Source: a virus. Taken from it: a stretch of DNA of 10,816 bases. Position 1 is the first letter of the stretch. The number at the start of each line of letters is the position of its first letter. The stretch lies in UHGV virus genome UHGV-0110205. One strand, given 5' to 3'. A program made the position numbers and the translations under genes. This document shows positions 1,206 through 10,816 of this stretch, piece by piece. Under the pieces are notes generated by a model. That model was given only the letters and a program-made list of their open reading frames with translations, had not been told where the DNA came from and ran no database searches.

Positions 1206-1429
1206 GCTTTAACCTCCTGCACATCAACCGCATTCACCGCGCTATTGTGTCTTACAGACTTAAGCGCCGCAATGCAGTCTGACTTGCAAATGCGATATGG
1301 GCTTTTAGGTTTATCTGGATTTATCTTTGCGGCCTGAAGTCGTCCACTTCGTATCCACTGCGTGATAGTGCCTTTGTCTACCTTCAGATACGACGCCGCC
1401 TCTTCACGAGTGAAGATTTCTTCTTCCAC
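1082..1429 (-). CDS. xis: Excisionase / DNA-binding recombination directionality factor (HTH, AlpA/Xis-like)
   Basis: 115-aa ORF with GTG start preceded by GGAGA (6-nt spacing). N-terminal TREEAASYLKVDKGTITQWIRSGRL resembles excisionase-type HTH. 3' end overlaps int start by 124 nt. Position immediately upstream of int. Confidence 0.6.
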   Translation of the reverse strand: MEEEIFTREEAASYLKVDKGTITQWIRSGRLQAAKINPDKPKSPYRICKSDCIAALKSVRHNSAVNAVDVQEVKACQSNYAVARGTAISSRQMDQELDALLKHRTKGKRKNFTIV

Positions 1430-1519
1430 CTGGAATCTCCATTTATTGAATTGGTATTATTGCGGTAGGTCTGGATATCATTGAGCAATGAACAGGACTC
1501 ATCGAGTGTGAGGCTGTGG

Positions 1520-1864
1520 TTAGTCCTTGCGTAACTCGCTAATTCTTCTGTAAGTCTCTGGTGCTTTGTTTCCGTGTATCTTCATTTCAGACTTCAACAG
1601 AGCAACGAGTGAATCCCATTCGTTGAGGATGCCTTTGAATGCCGGAACGCGCTTTGCAACCTTGTTGAATGAATCCCTGATTTCTGGAATCTGCTCAACA
1701 AGTGCAACGCATCGTCGGAAATCGGCTGCATCATGTGGAGCGCCGAAGTGATGACCATAGATATTCTTTTTCAGTCCACATGCGATTGAGGCAAGAGTTG
1801 CGCTACTGATGCCGACATCGCCAGTCGATTGCCATTTCAAAACCTTCATAGCCAAATCTGACAT
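1520..1864 (-). CDS. Hypothetical protein, 114 aa (ea-region accessory gene)
   Basis: ORF MSDLAMKVLKWQ... with GGAGA 6 nt upstream of ATG 1864. Non-repetitive composition; same strand as operon. Lies 39 nt downstream of an intrinsic terminator. Confidence 0.55.
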   Translation of the reverse strand: MSDLAMKVLKWQSTGDVGISSATLASIACGLKKNIYGHHFGAPHDAADFRRCVALVEQIPEIRDSFNKVAKRVPAFKGILNEWDSLVALLKSEMKIHGNKAPETYRRISELRKD

Positions 1865-1902
1865 TTCTTGTCTCCATAAAACAAAACTCGCCGTAGCGAG
1901 TT

Positions 1903-1933
1903 CAGATAAAAGAAAACCCGCACTCGGCGGGTT
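1903..1933 (-). terminator. Rho-independent terminator (minus strand)
   Basis: 7-bp GC-rich stem aacccgc/gcgggtt (1915-1921, 1927-1933) with 5-nt loop. On the minus strand it is followed by uucuuuuaucu (revcomp of 1904-1914). Confidence 0.5.
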
Positions 1934-2212
1934 CGCATTCGTTCAAATTGCGTTTACTTCTTGGCGTTCTGTTCATCCATATCGATATACCATGGGTTGC
2001 TTCCCTTGGGCATGTTTAACGACTGCTCGCGATAGTATCTGATGCGCTCCATGAAATACTCGCGTGAGTGCTCAGGTTGCTCTCATGATACCTGCTCAGT
2101 GATAACAGGTATGTTAAGGCGCTCTCTGTACTCCATGCCTGATGCTGCAAGGTCAACGTTTACCTTGTTCTGTTTTTCTTTCGATTTCTCGGCGATGTTA
2201 TGCCTGACATTG

Positions 2213-2455
2213 TCAACCCGCCTCCTTCTGAACATAACGGTTATAAATCAGTCCCTGAGGGCCATAAGGAAGCGGGATGTGCAACTCCTCTGGTTCAGAA
2301 ACTATCCATTCTCCGGCCATCTCCGCTGGAGAGGTAATGATAAGTTGTTTGCTAATAAAAGGACCACTCCTCTCAACAACAAGCTTACCATCTTCATTAA
2401 TAAAAGCTTGGATGTCAGGTGTGCTTCCACACTTGGTGATGCAGCGTTTGAACAT
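2213..2455 (-). CDS. Hypothetical protein, 80 aa (moron-like cargo gene)
   Basis: ORF MFKRCITKCGSTPDIQAFINEDGKLVVERSG...; GGGAGA 6 nt upstream of ATG 2455. The ORF-track start at 2497 would lie upstream of the predicted -10, so I prefer 2455. Confidence 0.5.
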   Translation of the reverse strand: MFKRCITKCGSTPDIQAFINEDGKLVVERSGPFISKQLIITSPAEMAGEWIVSEPEELHIPLPYGPQGLIYNRYVQKEAG

Positions 2456-2485
2456 TTTGTGTCTCCCCATTTTATGGACGGGGTA

Positions 2486-2494
2486 ATTATAACA
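2486..2494 (-). promoter_or_regulatory. Candidate extended -10 promoter (TGTTATAAT) for the 80-aa gene
   Basis: Reverse complement of 2486-2494 is TGTTATAAT (TGn plus perfect TATAAT). Lies in a 126-bp AT-rich intergenic stretch, about 30 nt upstream of the SD/ATG of the 2455 gene. No good -35. Confidence 0.25.
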
Positions 2495-2581
2495 CATTGA
2501 AATATAGTAATATTTGACGTAGATTTCTTTTGATCTATAAGCGATTTTTTAATGCTTTTAAGTTATAAATACTTGTTTTCA

Positions 2582-3253
2582 TCACCCATCTTGCTGCGGT
2601 GCTACTATTGAAAAGTGCTCACACCCTTTAGCCCAAATAGTTTTGATAGTTGTCCAACTGACTGGAACCTTGATTTCGATTCTCCCGCTACAGTCACAAG
2701 TTTCGCAATCATCATCACCAAAGCATTCCGGGCAGCTTATAAACGTAGTTTCTGAAAATTCACCGGATAGCACACCCTTAGCGCCGTTCTCGGCTGTTAG
2801 TCTCTTCGGCACCATGACCCAACCATCCGGAATTACCGGAGAGTTGCCGGGTTCTTTAATGTGCAAGCGAGGCTCACCATCTTTTGGCTCAGGCCACTGG
2901 CGCTCCATGTTGATCTTCAATTTATCTTCCATAGCAGCGGTAATTTCAGCATCGCTGATGCCAGCACGGCGCTGTGAATCCCACAACAGAAACTGCATAT
3001 CAGCCCACTCGCTAAGATCGTCTGGTTCGGCTGCGGCTTCCAGTGCCTCTTTTGAGAGGTGTTTCAGTGGACCAATGGGGCCAACGCAGCCAAATGTGGA
3101 GTCAGACCATTTGGCATGCTCGTGGCGAATCTGTTCGCGTTCCAGTGATGCCAGTGCAATTCGTGCCAGTTCCATTTGTTCGCCACGAGTAAGCCCGTTT
3201 TCAAGCGGATTTTTAATGAATAATTCGATACGTTCTTTGGTAATAGTGGTCAT
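2582..3253 (-). CDS. DUF550 / MazG-like nucleotide pyrophosphohydrolase-domain protein (P22 EaA-like) with Cys-rich C-terminal region
   Basis: 223-aa ORF; AAGGTGA 7 nt upstream of ATG 3253. N-terminal block HEHAKWSDSTFG...GPLKHLSKEALE...DDLSEWAD resembles MazG/DUF550 motifs from memory. C-terminus has CPECFGDDDCETCDCSG. Confidence 0.7.
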   Translation of the reverse strand: MTTITKERIELFIKNPLENGLTRGEQMELARIALASLEREQIRHEHAKWSDSTFGCVGPIGPLKHLSKEALEAAAEPDDLSEWADMQFLLWDSQRRAGISDAEITAAMEDKLKINMERQWPEPKDGEPRLHIKEPGNSPVIPDGWVMVPKRLTAENGAKGVLSGEFSETTFISCPECFGDDDCETCDCSGRIEIKVPVSWTTIKTIWAKGCEHFSIVAPQQDG

Positions 3254-3255
3254 AG

Positions 3256-3447
3256 CTATTTCACCTTAATCTCAACATTTCGCAGCTTTAGCTCTACTGG
3301 CAGGTCTGACTTTCCTGTTAATGCTAATGCGAGATTTTCTGGGGTAATGAGAGCAGTTATTGCTTTCCCCATTGCCAGACGAATAATTATTCGTATTTCG
3401 CGATCGTCACATGCTCCTGGTCGAACGATTGATATTTGTCCGTCCAT
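3256..3447 (-). CDS. Hypothetical small protein, 63 aa
   Basis: AAGGAGA 5 nt upstream of ATG 3447; tightly packed between flanking genes (2-nt gaps), consistent with operon context. Confidence 0.5.
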   Translation of the reverse strand: MDGQISIVRPGACDDREIRIIIRLAMGKAITALITPENLALALTGKSDLPVELKLRNVEIKVK

Positions 3448-3448
3448 C

Positions 3449-4165
3449 TCACTCTCCTTTGATGCGAATGCCAGCGGAGCGGATTGCAGCGATGACTTCA
3501 GAAACTTTGTATGCCATTACCGTTTGGTAATCCTCGTGGAAATCTGTTCGATGAAGCATGCTGCTACGTTCCGGGAGCAGTATTTCCCGCGCTTCCAGTT
3601 CTGCAATGCGCTTCTCTGCGGCTTCCAGCTTCTCGCGCATATCGTCAACGTACTCGACCAGAGAACCGCCAGCAGGAATTTCGCACTCCTCGACCAGTTG
3701 GAAGTAGATATCAGCTGCGGCCCGTGTGTTGCTATGCCTAGCGTCGCCCATCTCACCTTCACGAAGAGCATCGCGTTCGGCGGTAAGATTGGCTATTTTG
3801 CTGTCTTTGCCTTCCAGCTCAACGCGCAGCCTCCCAACCGTAAGCGCAATATCCTCGTTCTCCTGGTCGCGGCGTTTGATGTATTGCTGGTTTCTTTCCC
3901 GTTCATCCAGCAGTGCCAGCACGGTAGCCGGATTGGCTGCAGCGATGAATTCAGCATTGGCCTGCTGTTCCATTTGGAAATCTTCATCGAAACCGCTTTC
4001 AGGATGCGCTCCTTCAATTCTGCAAATGGGAAGATATCCAACAACTTCACGATGAATTAGCGCATCACCAGCATCAAATCTCTCCTCTCCATATTCGAGC
4101 GACCACACACCACACGTTGCTTTCTCTGCCTTTTCACGCAGCGCCTGATAGTTAATTTTGGTCAT
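3449..4165 (-). CDS. Ead/Ea22-like protein
   Basis: 238-aa ORF; N-terminal NYQALREKAEKATCGVWSLEY...AEFIAAANPATVLALLDE matches my recollection of the Ead/Ea22 family signature; central coiled-coil-like acidic region. Upstream stop/start are adjacent. Confidence 0.75.
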   Translation of the reverse strand: MTKINYQALREKAEKATCGVWSLEYGEERFDAGDALIHREVVGYLPICRIEGAHPESGFDEDFQMEQQANAEFIAAANPATVLALLDERERNQQYIKRRDQENEDIALTVGRLRVELEGKDSKIANLTAERDALREGEMGDARHSNTRAAADIYFQLVEECEIPAGGSLVEYVDDMREKLEAAEKRIAELEAREILLPERSSMLHRTDFHEDYQTVMAYKVSEVIAAIRSAGIRIKGE

Positions 4166-10286: not shown

Positions 10287-10816
10287 TGATTACAGGCATA
10301 ACCCTGTACAACATCAGGAGGCATCCAGTATGGGGTATGTCTCTATACACCGCCAGTTTATGGACAGCAGGCTCTATAAGGACTCTCAGGCAGTACATCT
10401 TTGGCTTCACTTAATCCTCAAGGCTAATCACGAATCTACTGTCGTCAATACGGATATCGGTCCGATAACTGTTGATCGCGGTCAGATGATAACTGGACGC
10501 CCGTCGCTGGTCAGAGAAACATTCATCCCCGACAACAAAGTTCGGAGCTTATTACGGACTTTTGAGTCGAAAGGGATGCTTAATATTTGCTCGATGGGGA
10601 AGAAATTTAGCCTGTTTACAATCGTTAAATATGACGATTTTCAGGCAAAAAATTGTCCAACGGTTGTCCAACGGTTGTCCAACGCAAACACCAGTAATGG
10701 CGCGGCTCTCAGCGGAGATTGTCCAACGGTTGTCCAACGGTTGTCCATAAACAATAATATAAATAATATCTCTAATACTGACGTATTAGAGAGTGCCACA
10801 GCAGATAAAAAGTCTG
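10268..10816 (+). CDS. O-like replication initiator, N-terminal part (runs off window end); contains ori iterons
   Basis: Open frame from ATG 10268 (AGGAGG 6 nt upstream) to window end, 183 codons, no stop. Alternative start ATG 10331 also has an SD. Missing from ORF track because it has no stop. Confidence 0.8.
10654..10790 (+). repeat. Replication origin: six 11-bp direct iterons (TTGTCCAACGG) in two triplets plus AT-rich region
   Basis: Iterons at 10654, 10665, 10676, 10720, 10731 and 10742 (last degenerate TTGTCCATAAA), separated by a 33-bp spacer, followed by aaacaataatataaataatatctctaatact. Lambda-ori-like architecture inside the initiator gene. Confidence 0.7.

What the first reader, a model, noticed from the sequence alone, without database searches (positions are those of the whole stretch)
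1903..2520. Moron-like autonomous transcription unit between the DUF550 gene and the 114-aa gene
An AT-rich 126-bp intergenic stretch carries an extended -10 element (TGTTATAAT, minus strand, 2486-2494) just upstream of an 80-aa ORF with a good SD. The unit ends at a GC-rich hairpin plus U-tract (1903-1933). Between gene and terminator are ~280 nt with only two SD-less small ORFs (50 aa at 2083-2235, 32 aa at 1954-2052), so this may be a 3' UTR or small RNA instead. Promoter-gene-terminator cassettes in prophage early-left regions are typical lysogenic-conversion or defence/anti-defence cargo; the 80-aa protein matches no family I recognise.
Basis: partly seen in the sequence, partly recalled or inferred. 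Interest (0 to 1): 0.6.

Follow-up and report, generated by a model that had tools for sequence, protein, structure and literature searches.

The report
Prophage moron carrying a decayed theta gene
A small add-on gene cassette in a lambda-like E. coli prophage has its own conserved promoter and terminator and encodes an uncharacterised 80-residue protein, and its supposed 3' UTR is the broken remnant of a phage copy of the DNA polymerase III theta (Hot) gene; this is an ordinary kind of prophage cargo, not a new system.

Summary
They are the 126-nt AT-rich gap, the extended -10 TGTTATAAT (2494-2486), an SD plus 80-aa ORF (2455-2213), and a GC hairpin with T-tract (1934-1904). The "~280 nt with two SD-less small ORFs" was misread. 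It is one reading frame (2235-1954) homologous to DNA polymerase III theta / phage P1 Hot (PF06440, 98.9 bits). It is disabled by a 1-nt deletion just after its ancestral SD-linked ATG (2210) and by CGA->TGA at 2085-2083. Related copies keep CGA or carry other, independent lesions, so this is a decaying pseudogene, not a UTR, sRNA or recoding site. The moron reading holds. The slot between the DUF550-type gene and the 114-aa gene is empty or differently filled in related prophages. The small gene belongs to a tiny Enterobacterales prophage family under purifying selection (dN/dS about 0.2-0.3). All members keep an upstream CTACGTC box, then 24 or 25 nt (box end to the first T of the hexamer), then TGnTATnnT, and a terminator hairpin downstream. 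The protein is predicted to be a small beta-barrel of unknown function. Promoter activity is inferred, not shown. Interest is modest.

The parts
2456..2581 (-). AT-rich 126-nt intergenic region upstream of the small gene; it contains the promoter block.
   Evidence: GC 0.27 against 0.46 for the window. About 75% identical to the Citrobacter-type copy.
2516..2522 (-). Invariant CTACGTC box, about -43 to -37 relative to the inferred start site. It lies just upstream of where a -35 hexamer would be. Its binding factor is unknown.
   Evidence: Invariant in all five diverged lineages (A2). Present as two direct copies 22 nt apart in L038 and L039. TCTACGTC occurs only once in the window.
2486..2494 (-). 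Extended -10 promoter element TGTTATAAT. The inferred transcription start is near 2479.
   Evidence: The TG and positions T1, A2, T3 and T6 of the hexamer are invariant across Escherichia, Citrobacter-type, Pectobacterium and metagenomic homologues.
2463..2468 (-). Shine-Dalgarno GGGGAG, 7 nt before ATG 2455.
   Evidence: Read from the sequence. Purine-rich SD-like sequences sit at the same place in the homologues.
2213..2455 (-). 80-aa ORF (stop included) encoding a small all-beta protein of a narrow prophage family (phrog_9613).
   Evidence: dN/dS is 0.19-0.31. The AlphaFold model has pLDDT 83 and pTM 0.74 with six strands. PGAP annotates it as WP_000476264.1.
2221..2227 (-). SD AAGGAGG of the ancestral theta gene, embedded in the last codons of the small ORF.
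   Evidence: Read from the sequence. Aligned with the SD region of intact Klebsiella phage theta genes.
2208..2210 (-). Ancestral theta start codon, now out of frame. A 1-nt deletion at about 2202 follows it, so this ATG opens only a 16-codon ORF ending at TAA 2162-2160.
   Evidence: Alignment with KO-TP1 (ATG TCA CAG TGG AAC ATC) and L196 (ATG TCA GGC CAT AGC ATC).
1954..2235 (-). Reading frame of a DNA polymerase III theta / P1 Hot homologue, now a pseudogene. Its only in-frame start is ATG 2235, which has no SD and lies inside the small ORF.
   Evidence: PF06440 at 98.9 bits and phrog_1105. 60-70% identical to phage theta/Hot proteins. PGAP marks it as a pseudogene with an internal stop.
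2083..2085 (-). In-frame TGA at the position of a conserved Arg codon.
   Evidence: The codon is AGA or CGC in intact phage genes and CGA in L191-L194. It is TGA in all 28 copies found by the flank pattern. 72 of 90 E. coli genomes carrying the segment match the TGA 61-mer exactly.
1904..1934 (-). Intrinsic-terminator-like hairpin 1 (stem 1934-1914, T-tract 1913-1904). This is the cassette's own terminator.
   Evidence: A nearly identical stem (AACCCGCC..GCGGGTT) follows the small gene directly in Pectobacterium prophages.
1862..1919 (-). Widely shared linker: the T-tract, hairpin 2 (1903-1884), a second T-tract, the SD and the start of the 114-aa gene. It belongs to the downstream module, not to the cassette.
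   Evidence: A sharp homology boundary at 1919 in L030, L031, L032, L034 and L005. Matched in 84 phage records and more than 1,400 E. coli records. Fold z-score -4.7.

Best explanation
Window 1904-2581 (minus strand) is a moron-type accessory cassette at the int-proximal end of the early-left arm of a lambdoid prophage. It sits in a variable slot between a DUF550/dATP-dGTP-pyrophosphohydrolase gene and a conserved 114-aa gene.

Anatomy shown here:
- A conserved promoter block: a CTACGTC box, then 24 nt (25 in three of the five lineages), then the extended -10 hexamer with its TG motif (TGTTATAAT).
- An SD and an 80-aa gene for a small cytoplasmic all-beta protein.
- The remains of a theta/Hot gene that was once translationally coupled to the small gene. 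Its SD lies in the last codons of the small gene and its ATG lies 2 nt after the small gene's stop. It is now disabled by a 1-nt deletion after the ATG and by CGA->TGA.
- An intrinsic terminator hairpin, followed by a second hairpin that belongs to a widely shared module linker.

Inferred working: in the lysogen, host sigma-70 RNA polymerase starts near 2479 independently of the repressed PL. It transcribes the small gene and the dead theta sequence as a de facto untranslated tail, and stops at the tandem hairpins. During lytic growth, antiterminated PL transcription reads through the whole unit. The only functional product is the 80-aa protein. My best guess is that it acts by binding a host or competitor-phage protein, as small, slightly acidic, single-domain moron products usually do. 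The CTACGTC box is most likely a site for a host or phage transcription factor acting beside the missing -35.
For: Anatomy and theta:
- Theta identity: PF06440 at 98.9 bits across the stop, and 60-70% identity to phage theta/Hot proteins.
- Two lesions are seen by alignment to the intact KO-TP1, ST13-OXA48phi12.5 and P1 hot genes and to L196.
- Decay pattern: CGA in L191-L194, TGA plus TAG in L178, a 2-nt deletion in L193/L194, a 1-nt deletion in L192, loss of the 5' end in L027, and an 11-nt junction deletion in P0002.
- PGAP annotates the gene as a pseudogene with an internal stop.

Slot polymorphism:
- The slot is empty in L032, holds Eag in L033 and holds DUF4752 plus two genes in L034.
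- The cassette or related units also occur in nin regions (L003, L005, L043).

The small gene is real:
- Homologues of 46-70% identity occur in Citrobacter, Pectobacterium and metagenomes.
- dN/dS is 0.19-0.31, with synonymous sites at or near saturation.
- The fold model is confident.

Promoter and terminator:
- CTACGTC and the TG/T-A-T-n-n-T positions are invariant in five lineages, while the spacer and synonymous sites have diverged.
- Every homologue follows a gap of 126-418 nt.
- Hairpin plus T-tract follows the small gene in L038, L039 and L043. The L039 stem nearly matches window hairpin 1.
Against: - No transcript data exist, so promoter and terminator activity are inferred from sequence and conservation only.
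- The extended -10 alone is not beyond chance in this window, and there is no -35.
- The GC content of the two genes equals that of the surroundings (0.46), so the compositional hallmark of morons is absent.
- Within the E. coli lineage the small ORF shows only weak constraint: 7 synonymous against 11 nonsynonymous polymorphisms, pN/pS 0.43. One copy (L191) carries a nonsense codon in it while keeping an open theta frame.
Confidence: 0.72

Rival explanations
1. The theta homologue is still expressed. Translation would start at ATG 2235 (giving an 11-residue N-terminal extension), perhaps by re-initiation coupled to the small ORF. The UGA at 2085-2083 would be read through or recoded, so the cassette would deliver a Hot-like stabiliser of the Pol III epsilon subunit.
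For: - The frame downstream of TGA is open to the normal theta C-terminus.
- In L005 the C-terminal third has been replaced by another theta allele and stays in frame.
- L191 has an uninterrupted 93-codon frame from the ATG 2235 equivalent, with CGA.
- The TGA allele is found in 72 of 90 carrier genomes.
Against: - ATG 2235 has no SD. The strong SD serves ATG 2210, which is out of frame after a 1-nt deletion.
- Sister copies carry additional, different disabling mutations: TAG next to TGA, and 1-nt and 2-nt deletions. This is the signature of neutral decay, not of a maintained recoding site.
- Diversity among TGA copies is too low for the open downstream frame to carry weight.
- No SECIS-like or other known recoding RNA was found by Rfam.
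Confidence: 0.05
2. The roughly 280 nt between the small gene and the terminator function as RNA, either as a regulatory 3' UTR or as a 3'-UTR-derived small RNA released by processing.
For: - The stretch is probably transcribed but not productively translated.
- It ends in a strong terminator hairpin, the usual scaffold of 3'-UTR-derived sRNAs.
- There is a weak, sub-threshold rsmX-like hit (24 bits against a gathering score of 56).
Against: - The sequence is fully explained as a protein-gene remnant: it is 71-78% identical at DNA level to intact phage theta genes over the homologous part.
- No Rfam family reaches threshold.
- The stretch is absent from the Pectobacterium-type and metagenomic units, where the terminator follows the small gene directly.
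- It accumulates indels among sister copies.
Confidence: 0.06
3. There is no autonomous promoter. The genes are ordinary distal PL-operon (or PR/nin-operon) passengers expressed only by antiterminated read-through. The conserved upstream block would then be something else, such as a recombination linker or a protein-binding site unrelated to initiation.
For: - No -35 element is present, and the single TGnTATAAT is within chance for the window.
- All units lie co-oriented inside early operons.
- Conserved module-junction sequences do exist in these phages, for example the hairpin-2 linker.
- The GC content of the genes is not anomalous.
Against: - The invariant positions are exactly those that matter for an extended -10 (TG, T1, A2, T3, T6), at a fixed distance from the ATG region, while positions 4-5 and the spacer vary. 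A recombination linker would be conserved as a block.
- Conservation persists where synonymous sites are saturated.
- Each unit also carries its own terminator.
Confidence: 0.15
4. The small protein is an autoregulator that binds the CTACGTC box or boxes of its own promoter, making the unit a self-contained regulatory switch.
For: - The box co-travels with the gene in every lineage and is duplicated 22 nt apart in L038/L039.
- It occurs nowhere else in the window.
Against: - The predicted fold has no recognised DNA-binding motif, and fold matches are weak and generic.
- By my residue count from the sequence, the protein is slightly acidic (10 acidic, 8 basic residues).
- A box at -43 to -37 beside a promoter lacking a -35 fits an activator site better than an operator.
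Confidence: 0.08

Closest known systems
Morons of lambdoid phages (HK97 gene 15 and the HK022/HK97 morons, as reviewed in 'The moron comes of age', PMC3594210)
   Same: It is an extra transcription unit that is present or absent between the same neighbouring genes in related phages. It has its own promoter-like and terminator-like elements and is carried in a prophage. Related units occur at different genomic positions (distal PL arm and nin region).
   Different: GC content does not differ from the surrounding genes. Expression from the repressed prophage has not been shown. The unit sits in the early-left accessory region, not in the late operon like HK97 gene 15. It also carries a second, now dead, passenger gene.
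Phage P1 Hot and other phage-encoded homologues of DNA polymerase III theta (HolE; Pfam PF06440)
   Same: The 2235-1954 frame matches PF06440 at 98.9 bits. It is about 70% identical to P1 Hot and to Klebsiella phage theta proteins over the shared part. Theta genes are common small cargo of temperate enterobacterial phages, often in nin regions.
   Different: The gene is disabled here by a frameshift after the ancestral start and by an internal TGA. PGAP annotates it as a pseudogene. Hot is an intact protein that can substitute for theta (PMC2528190, citing Chikova and Schaaper 2005).
Other occupants of the same early-left slot (Eag, DUF4752 and small hypothetical genes; the ea/Ea22-type accessory region)
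   Same: Same position between the DUF550-type gene and the 114-aa gene upstream of xis-int, the same orientation, and a small accessory gene.
   Different: The sequences are unrelated. The Eag unit in L033 has a different upstream region and terminator.

Membership tests
Moron (autonomous accessory transcription unit in a phage genome) | Extra DNA that is present in some related phages and absent in others, between the same neighbouring genes | tested here: met
   L032 joins the DUF550-type gene to the 114-aa gene with only the hairpin linker. L033 and L034 hold other genes in the slot. Only 84-90 of 5,426 E. coli genomes carry the cassette, while more than 1,400 carry the flanking linker.
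Moron (autonomous accessory transcription unit in a phage genome) | Own promoter (sequence level) | tested here: met
   Extended -10 at 2494-2486. Its diagnostic positions and an upstream CTACGTC box are invariant across five lineages with saturated synonymous divergence. No -35 is present.
Moron (autonomous accessory transcription unit in a phage genome) | Own terminator | tested here: met
   Hairpin plus T-tract at 1934-1904. Equivalent hairpins follow the small gene in L038, L039 and L043.
Moron (autonomous accessory transcription unit in a phage genome) | [quoted passage not shown] | tested here: not met
   Small ORF 0.457, theta remnant 0.463, window 0.459. Only the intergenic promoter region is deviant, at 0.27.
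Moron (autonomous accessory transcription unit in a phage genome) | Transcribed from the repressed prophage | not testable with these tools
   This needs RNA 5'/3'-end mapping in a lysogen. No paper mentions the protein accession.
DNA polymerase III theta / Hot (Pfam PF06440) | Sequence match above the family's gathering score | tested here: met
   98.9 bits against a cut-off of 34.6, covering residues 12-77 of the conceptual translation. Also matches phrog_1105.
DNA polymerase III theta / Hot (Pfam PF06440) | Intact, translatable gene | tested here: not met
   A 1-nt deletion after the SD-linked ATG 2210 and a TGA at 2085-2083. Marked as a pseudogene by PGAP.
DNA polymerase III theta / Hot (Pfam PF06440) | Binds and stabilises the epsilon proofreading subunit | not testable with these tools
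   This is a biochemical property, and it is moot if the protein is not made.
Known small RNA families (Rfam 15) | Covariance-model match at the gathering score | tested here: not met
   No match in the whole window. The best sub-threshold hit is rsmX, 24 bits against 56.
Known anti-phage defence proteins (PADLOC-DB 2.0) | Profile match of the 80-aa protein or its homologues | tested here: not met
   No family matched the window protein, P0012 or P0013 at E up to 1.

The most novel reading that the evidence does not exclude
The 80-aa beta-barrel protein is a previously unrecognised lysogen-expressed effector, for example a superinfection-exclusion, anti-defence or replisome-directed factor. 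The replisome idea comes from its former translational coupling to a theta gene. Its promoter would be switched by an as yet unidentified factor that recognises the invariant CTACGTC box beside an extended -10 that lacks a -35.
Probability: 0.2. Interest if true: 0.55.

Novelty: new member of a known kind. Interest (0 to 1): 0.3.

Why it matters
The result corrects a tempting misreading. A "UTR with two tiny ORFs" behind a moron gene turned out to be a recognisable gene in decay, and the in-frame TGA shared by many genomes is a nonsense mutation that spread, not a recoding signal. It also picks out a very small, uncharacterised prophage protein family (Escherichia, Citrobacter, Pectobacterium). 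The family has a clear promoter-gene-terminator architecture and an unexplained invariant promoter-proximal box. That makes it a cheap, well-defined candidate for lysogenic-conversion or phage-defence screens. Nothing here challenges current understanding of lambdoid phage biology.

Tried and rejected
1. Programmed readthrough or recoding at the TGA. I scanned for the codon with free flanks and found 28 of 28 TGA, which at first looked like conservation. I rejected the idea once CGA-bearing and otherwise-broken sister copies appeared and the start-proximal frameshift was seen.

2. Programmed -1 frameshifting from ATG 2210 into the theta frame. Reading the sequence, there is no canonical X XXY YYZ slippery site in the 16-codon ORF. 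Rejected.

3. Collection-wide scan for the promoter motif TCTACGTC-N20-24-TGTGWTAT in viral contigs. It returned more than 120 hits in unrelated environmental contigs. None encodes the family, so these are chance matches for about 15 specified bases.

4. Scans of GTDB species-representative genomes, with both the DNA pattern and the protein alignment, found nothing.

5. tblastn of the 80-aa protein against 50,697 phage records found no match.

6. P0014, an 864-aa MBG-repeat protein, appeared as a weak hit with five matching stretches. It is low-complexity and I dismissed it.

8. The 158-aa and HNH_2 genes downstream of homologues were considered as possible two-gene partners. A terminator separates them from the small gene, and only HNH_2 gave a weak generic PADLOC match. 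I did not treat them as part of the unit.

9. I compared the CTACGTC box from memory with binding sites of known E. coli regulators (for example the MetJ box AGACGTCT and the NarL heptamer). No convincing identity emerged, and this was not tested.

Full report
**Context.** The window is the early-left arm and immunity region of a lambdoid prophage, all leftward on the minus strand. It holds int (1205-45), an excisionase-type ORF, a 114-aa gene (1864-1520), the region in question, and a DUF550/dATP-dGTP-pyrophosphohydrolase gene (3253-2582; PF04447). Beyond these lie recombination-type genes, cI (9401-8700) and the rightward cro and cII-like genes. Near-identical DNA lies in E. coli prophages next to torI/dsdC and at other attachment sites.

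**Checking the observation.**
- The gap 2456-2581 is 126 nt with GC 0.27, against 0.46 for the window.
- TGTTATAAT occupies 2494-2486 and is the only TGnTATAAT in the window. With 0.30 expected by chance it is not significant alone.
- The generic sigma-70 scan found no -35/-10 pair on this strand.
- GGGGAG (2468-2463) precedes ATG 2455 by 7 nt, and the ORF ends at TGA 2215-2213.
- The hairpin has its stem at 1934-1914 and its T-tract at 1913-1904. A second hairpin (1903-1884) with its own T-tract follows directly.

**The '3' UTR' is a broken theta gene.** PGAP annotates "DNA polymerase III subunit theta, internal stop" under this stretch in near-identical genomes. Translating 2235-1954 gives one frame with a single in-frame TGA (2085-2083). 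With the stop masked, the frame scores 98.9 bits on PF06440 (cut-off 34.6), and the match runs across the stop. It is 60-70% identical to theta/Hot proteins of Klebsiella, Enterobacter and Serratia phages, HK639 and P1. Hot is the P1 homologue of theta, which stabilises the epsilon proofreading subunit (PMC2528190).

Alignment with the intact genes of phages KO-TP1, ST13-OXA48phi12.5 and P1 shows two lesions.
- The strong SD AAGGAGG (2227-2221) and ATG 2210-2208 correspond to the intact genes' start. The window lacks one base right after it (ATGTCAGG-CATAAC), so this ATG opens only a 16-codon ORF.
- An Arg codon (AGA or CGC in relatives) is TGA in the window.

The only in-frame start for theta is ATG 2235, which has no SD and lies inside the small ORF.

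**Is the TGA maintained?** A scan with the codon left free found TGA in 28 of 28 copies, and 72 of 90 carrier E. coli genomes match the TGA 61-mer exactly. But these copies are nearly identical, so the count says little by itself. Loci recovered through the small protein settle the matter.
- L191-L194 have CGA at this codon.
- L178 has TGA followed by TAG.
- L193 and L194 have a 2-nt deletion, and L192 a 1-nt deletion.
- L027 has lost the 5' end.
- P0002 has an 11-nt junction deletion.
- The Citrobacter-type copy L196 retains the extra base and an in-frame ATG.

Several independent disabling mutations in sister copies are the pattern of a pseudogene decaying. They do not fit recoding. No complete E. 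coli genome has the exact CGA haplotype.

**Promoter.** Each homologue follows an intergenic gap of 126-418 nt. Aligning the upstream regions of five lineages shows a 7-nt box, CTACGTC (window 2522-2516), and the TG plus T-A-T-n-n-T of the extended -10 as invariant. The spacer, hexamer positions 4-5 and the leader vary. The spacer from the end of the box to the first T of the hexamer is 24 nt in the window and L043 and 25 nt in L196, L038 and L039. This is the conservation pattern expected of a working extended -10 promoter, and it persists across divergence that has saturated synonymous sites. L038 and L039 have two CTACGTC boxes 22 nt apart. The box lies at about -43 to -37, beside the absent -35, which suggests an activator site. 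What binds it is unexplained.

**Terminator and boundaries.** In L038, L039 and L043 a hairpin plus T-tract follows the small gene directly. The L039 stem (AACCCGCC..GCGGGTT) almost equals window hairpin 1. The ancestral unit was therefore promoter, small gene and terminator. In the Escherichia/Citrobacter branch a theta gene came to lie between gene and terminator. Downstream, homology to many phages and prophages that lack the cassette starts sharply at window 1919 (L030 mEp234, L031 g341c, L032, L034, L005). Hairpin 2, the SD and the start of the 114-aa gene form a widely shared linker, matched in 84 phage records and more than 1,400 E. coli records.

**Moron criteria** (definition from PMC3594210).
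- Presence/absence between the same neighbours: met. L032 is empty, L033 holds Eag and L034 holds three other genes.
- Own promoter and own terminator: met at sequence level.
- Deviant GC: not met.
- Expression in the lysogen: untested.

Related units sit both in distal PL arms (window, L039-L042) and in nin regions (L003, L005, L043), as expected of a mobile module.

**The sRNA alternative.** No Rfam family reaches threshold in the window. The only weak hit (rsmX, 24 bits against 56) covers the terminator hairpins.

**Verdict.** This is a one-gene moron of unknown function, dragging a dead theta/Hot passenger. It is a new member of a known kind and of modest interest. The invariant CTACGTC box and the orphan beta-barrel protein are the only parts worth experimental follow-up.

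**Caveat on counts.** The 51 full-length copies include contigs fetched twice, so only the 18 distinct sequences should be counted.

Noticed in passing
window 1862-1919 (minus strand); also L005 4946-5003, L032 1295-1350, L034 1765-1813: A roughly 58-nt element (T-tract, hairpin GAACTCGCTACGGCGAGTT, T-tract, SD, ATG) recurs as a sharp homology boundary upstream of different genes. These include the 114-aa gene in many phages and a 45-aa fusion gene in the nin region of L005. It is also found in E. coli B/BL21-type genomes with no annotated gene under it. It looks like a general module-junction or terminator linker of lambdoid phages.
   Followed up: partly
window 2582-2848 (minus strand): The Cys-rich C-terminal ~89 residues of the DUF550 gene (CPECFGDDDCETCDCSG...) travel with the cassette. 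In other genomes they are fused to different N-terminal domains (ead/Ea22-like, DnaJ, DUF551, dATP/dGTP pyrophosphohydrolase). Homology to cassette-free prophages ends at about 2821.
   Followed up: partly
window 10641-10758: Two clusters, 66 nt apart, each with three tandem 11-bp repeats TTGTCCAACGG. They resemble iterons and lie rightward of cII, where a lambdoid replication-origin/O-type gene would be expected.
   Followed up: no
L191 (IMGVR_UViG_2737471863_000004), cassette copy: This copy shows the reverse pattern to the window. Its theta frame is open (CGA, 93 codons from the upstream ATG), but the small ORF has a TTG->TAG nonsense mutation at codon 58.
   Followed up: partly
L038 and L039, about 30-75 nt upstream of the small gene: Two direct copies of AATCTACGTC spaced 22 nt apart (two helical turns) in the Pectobacterium-type units. 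The window has one clear copy. This suggests cooperative binding of an unidentified factor.
   Followed up: no
L197 (E. coli IAI1) 2768-3888: In strain IAI1 an IS3-family element (ISSen4) is inserted about 100 nt downstream of the theta remnant, and the gene beyond it is annotated with an internal stop. This prophage region is decaying more generally.
   Followed up: no
window 2497-2525 (plus strand): The only hit of the generic promoter scan in 1400-3400 is on the opposite strand (TTGAAA-17-TAGATT), inside the AT-rich gap and pointing into the DUF550 gene antisense. It is within chance expectation.
   Followed up: no
L196 3243-3305: In the Citrobacter-type copy a 62-nt spacer containing TTGCTT...TATAAT separates the small gene from a shortened (64-aa), diverged theta gene that has its own SD and ATG. 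Whether that theta is functional is unclear.
   Followed up: no
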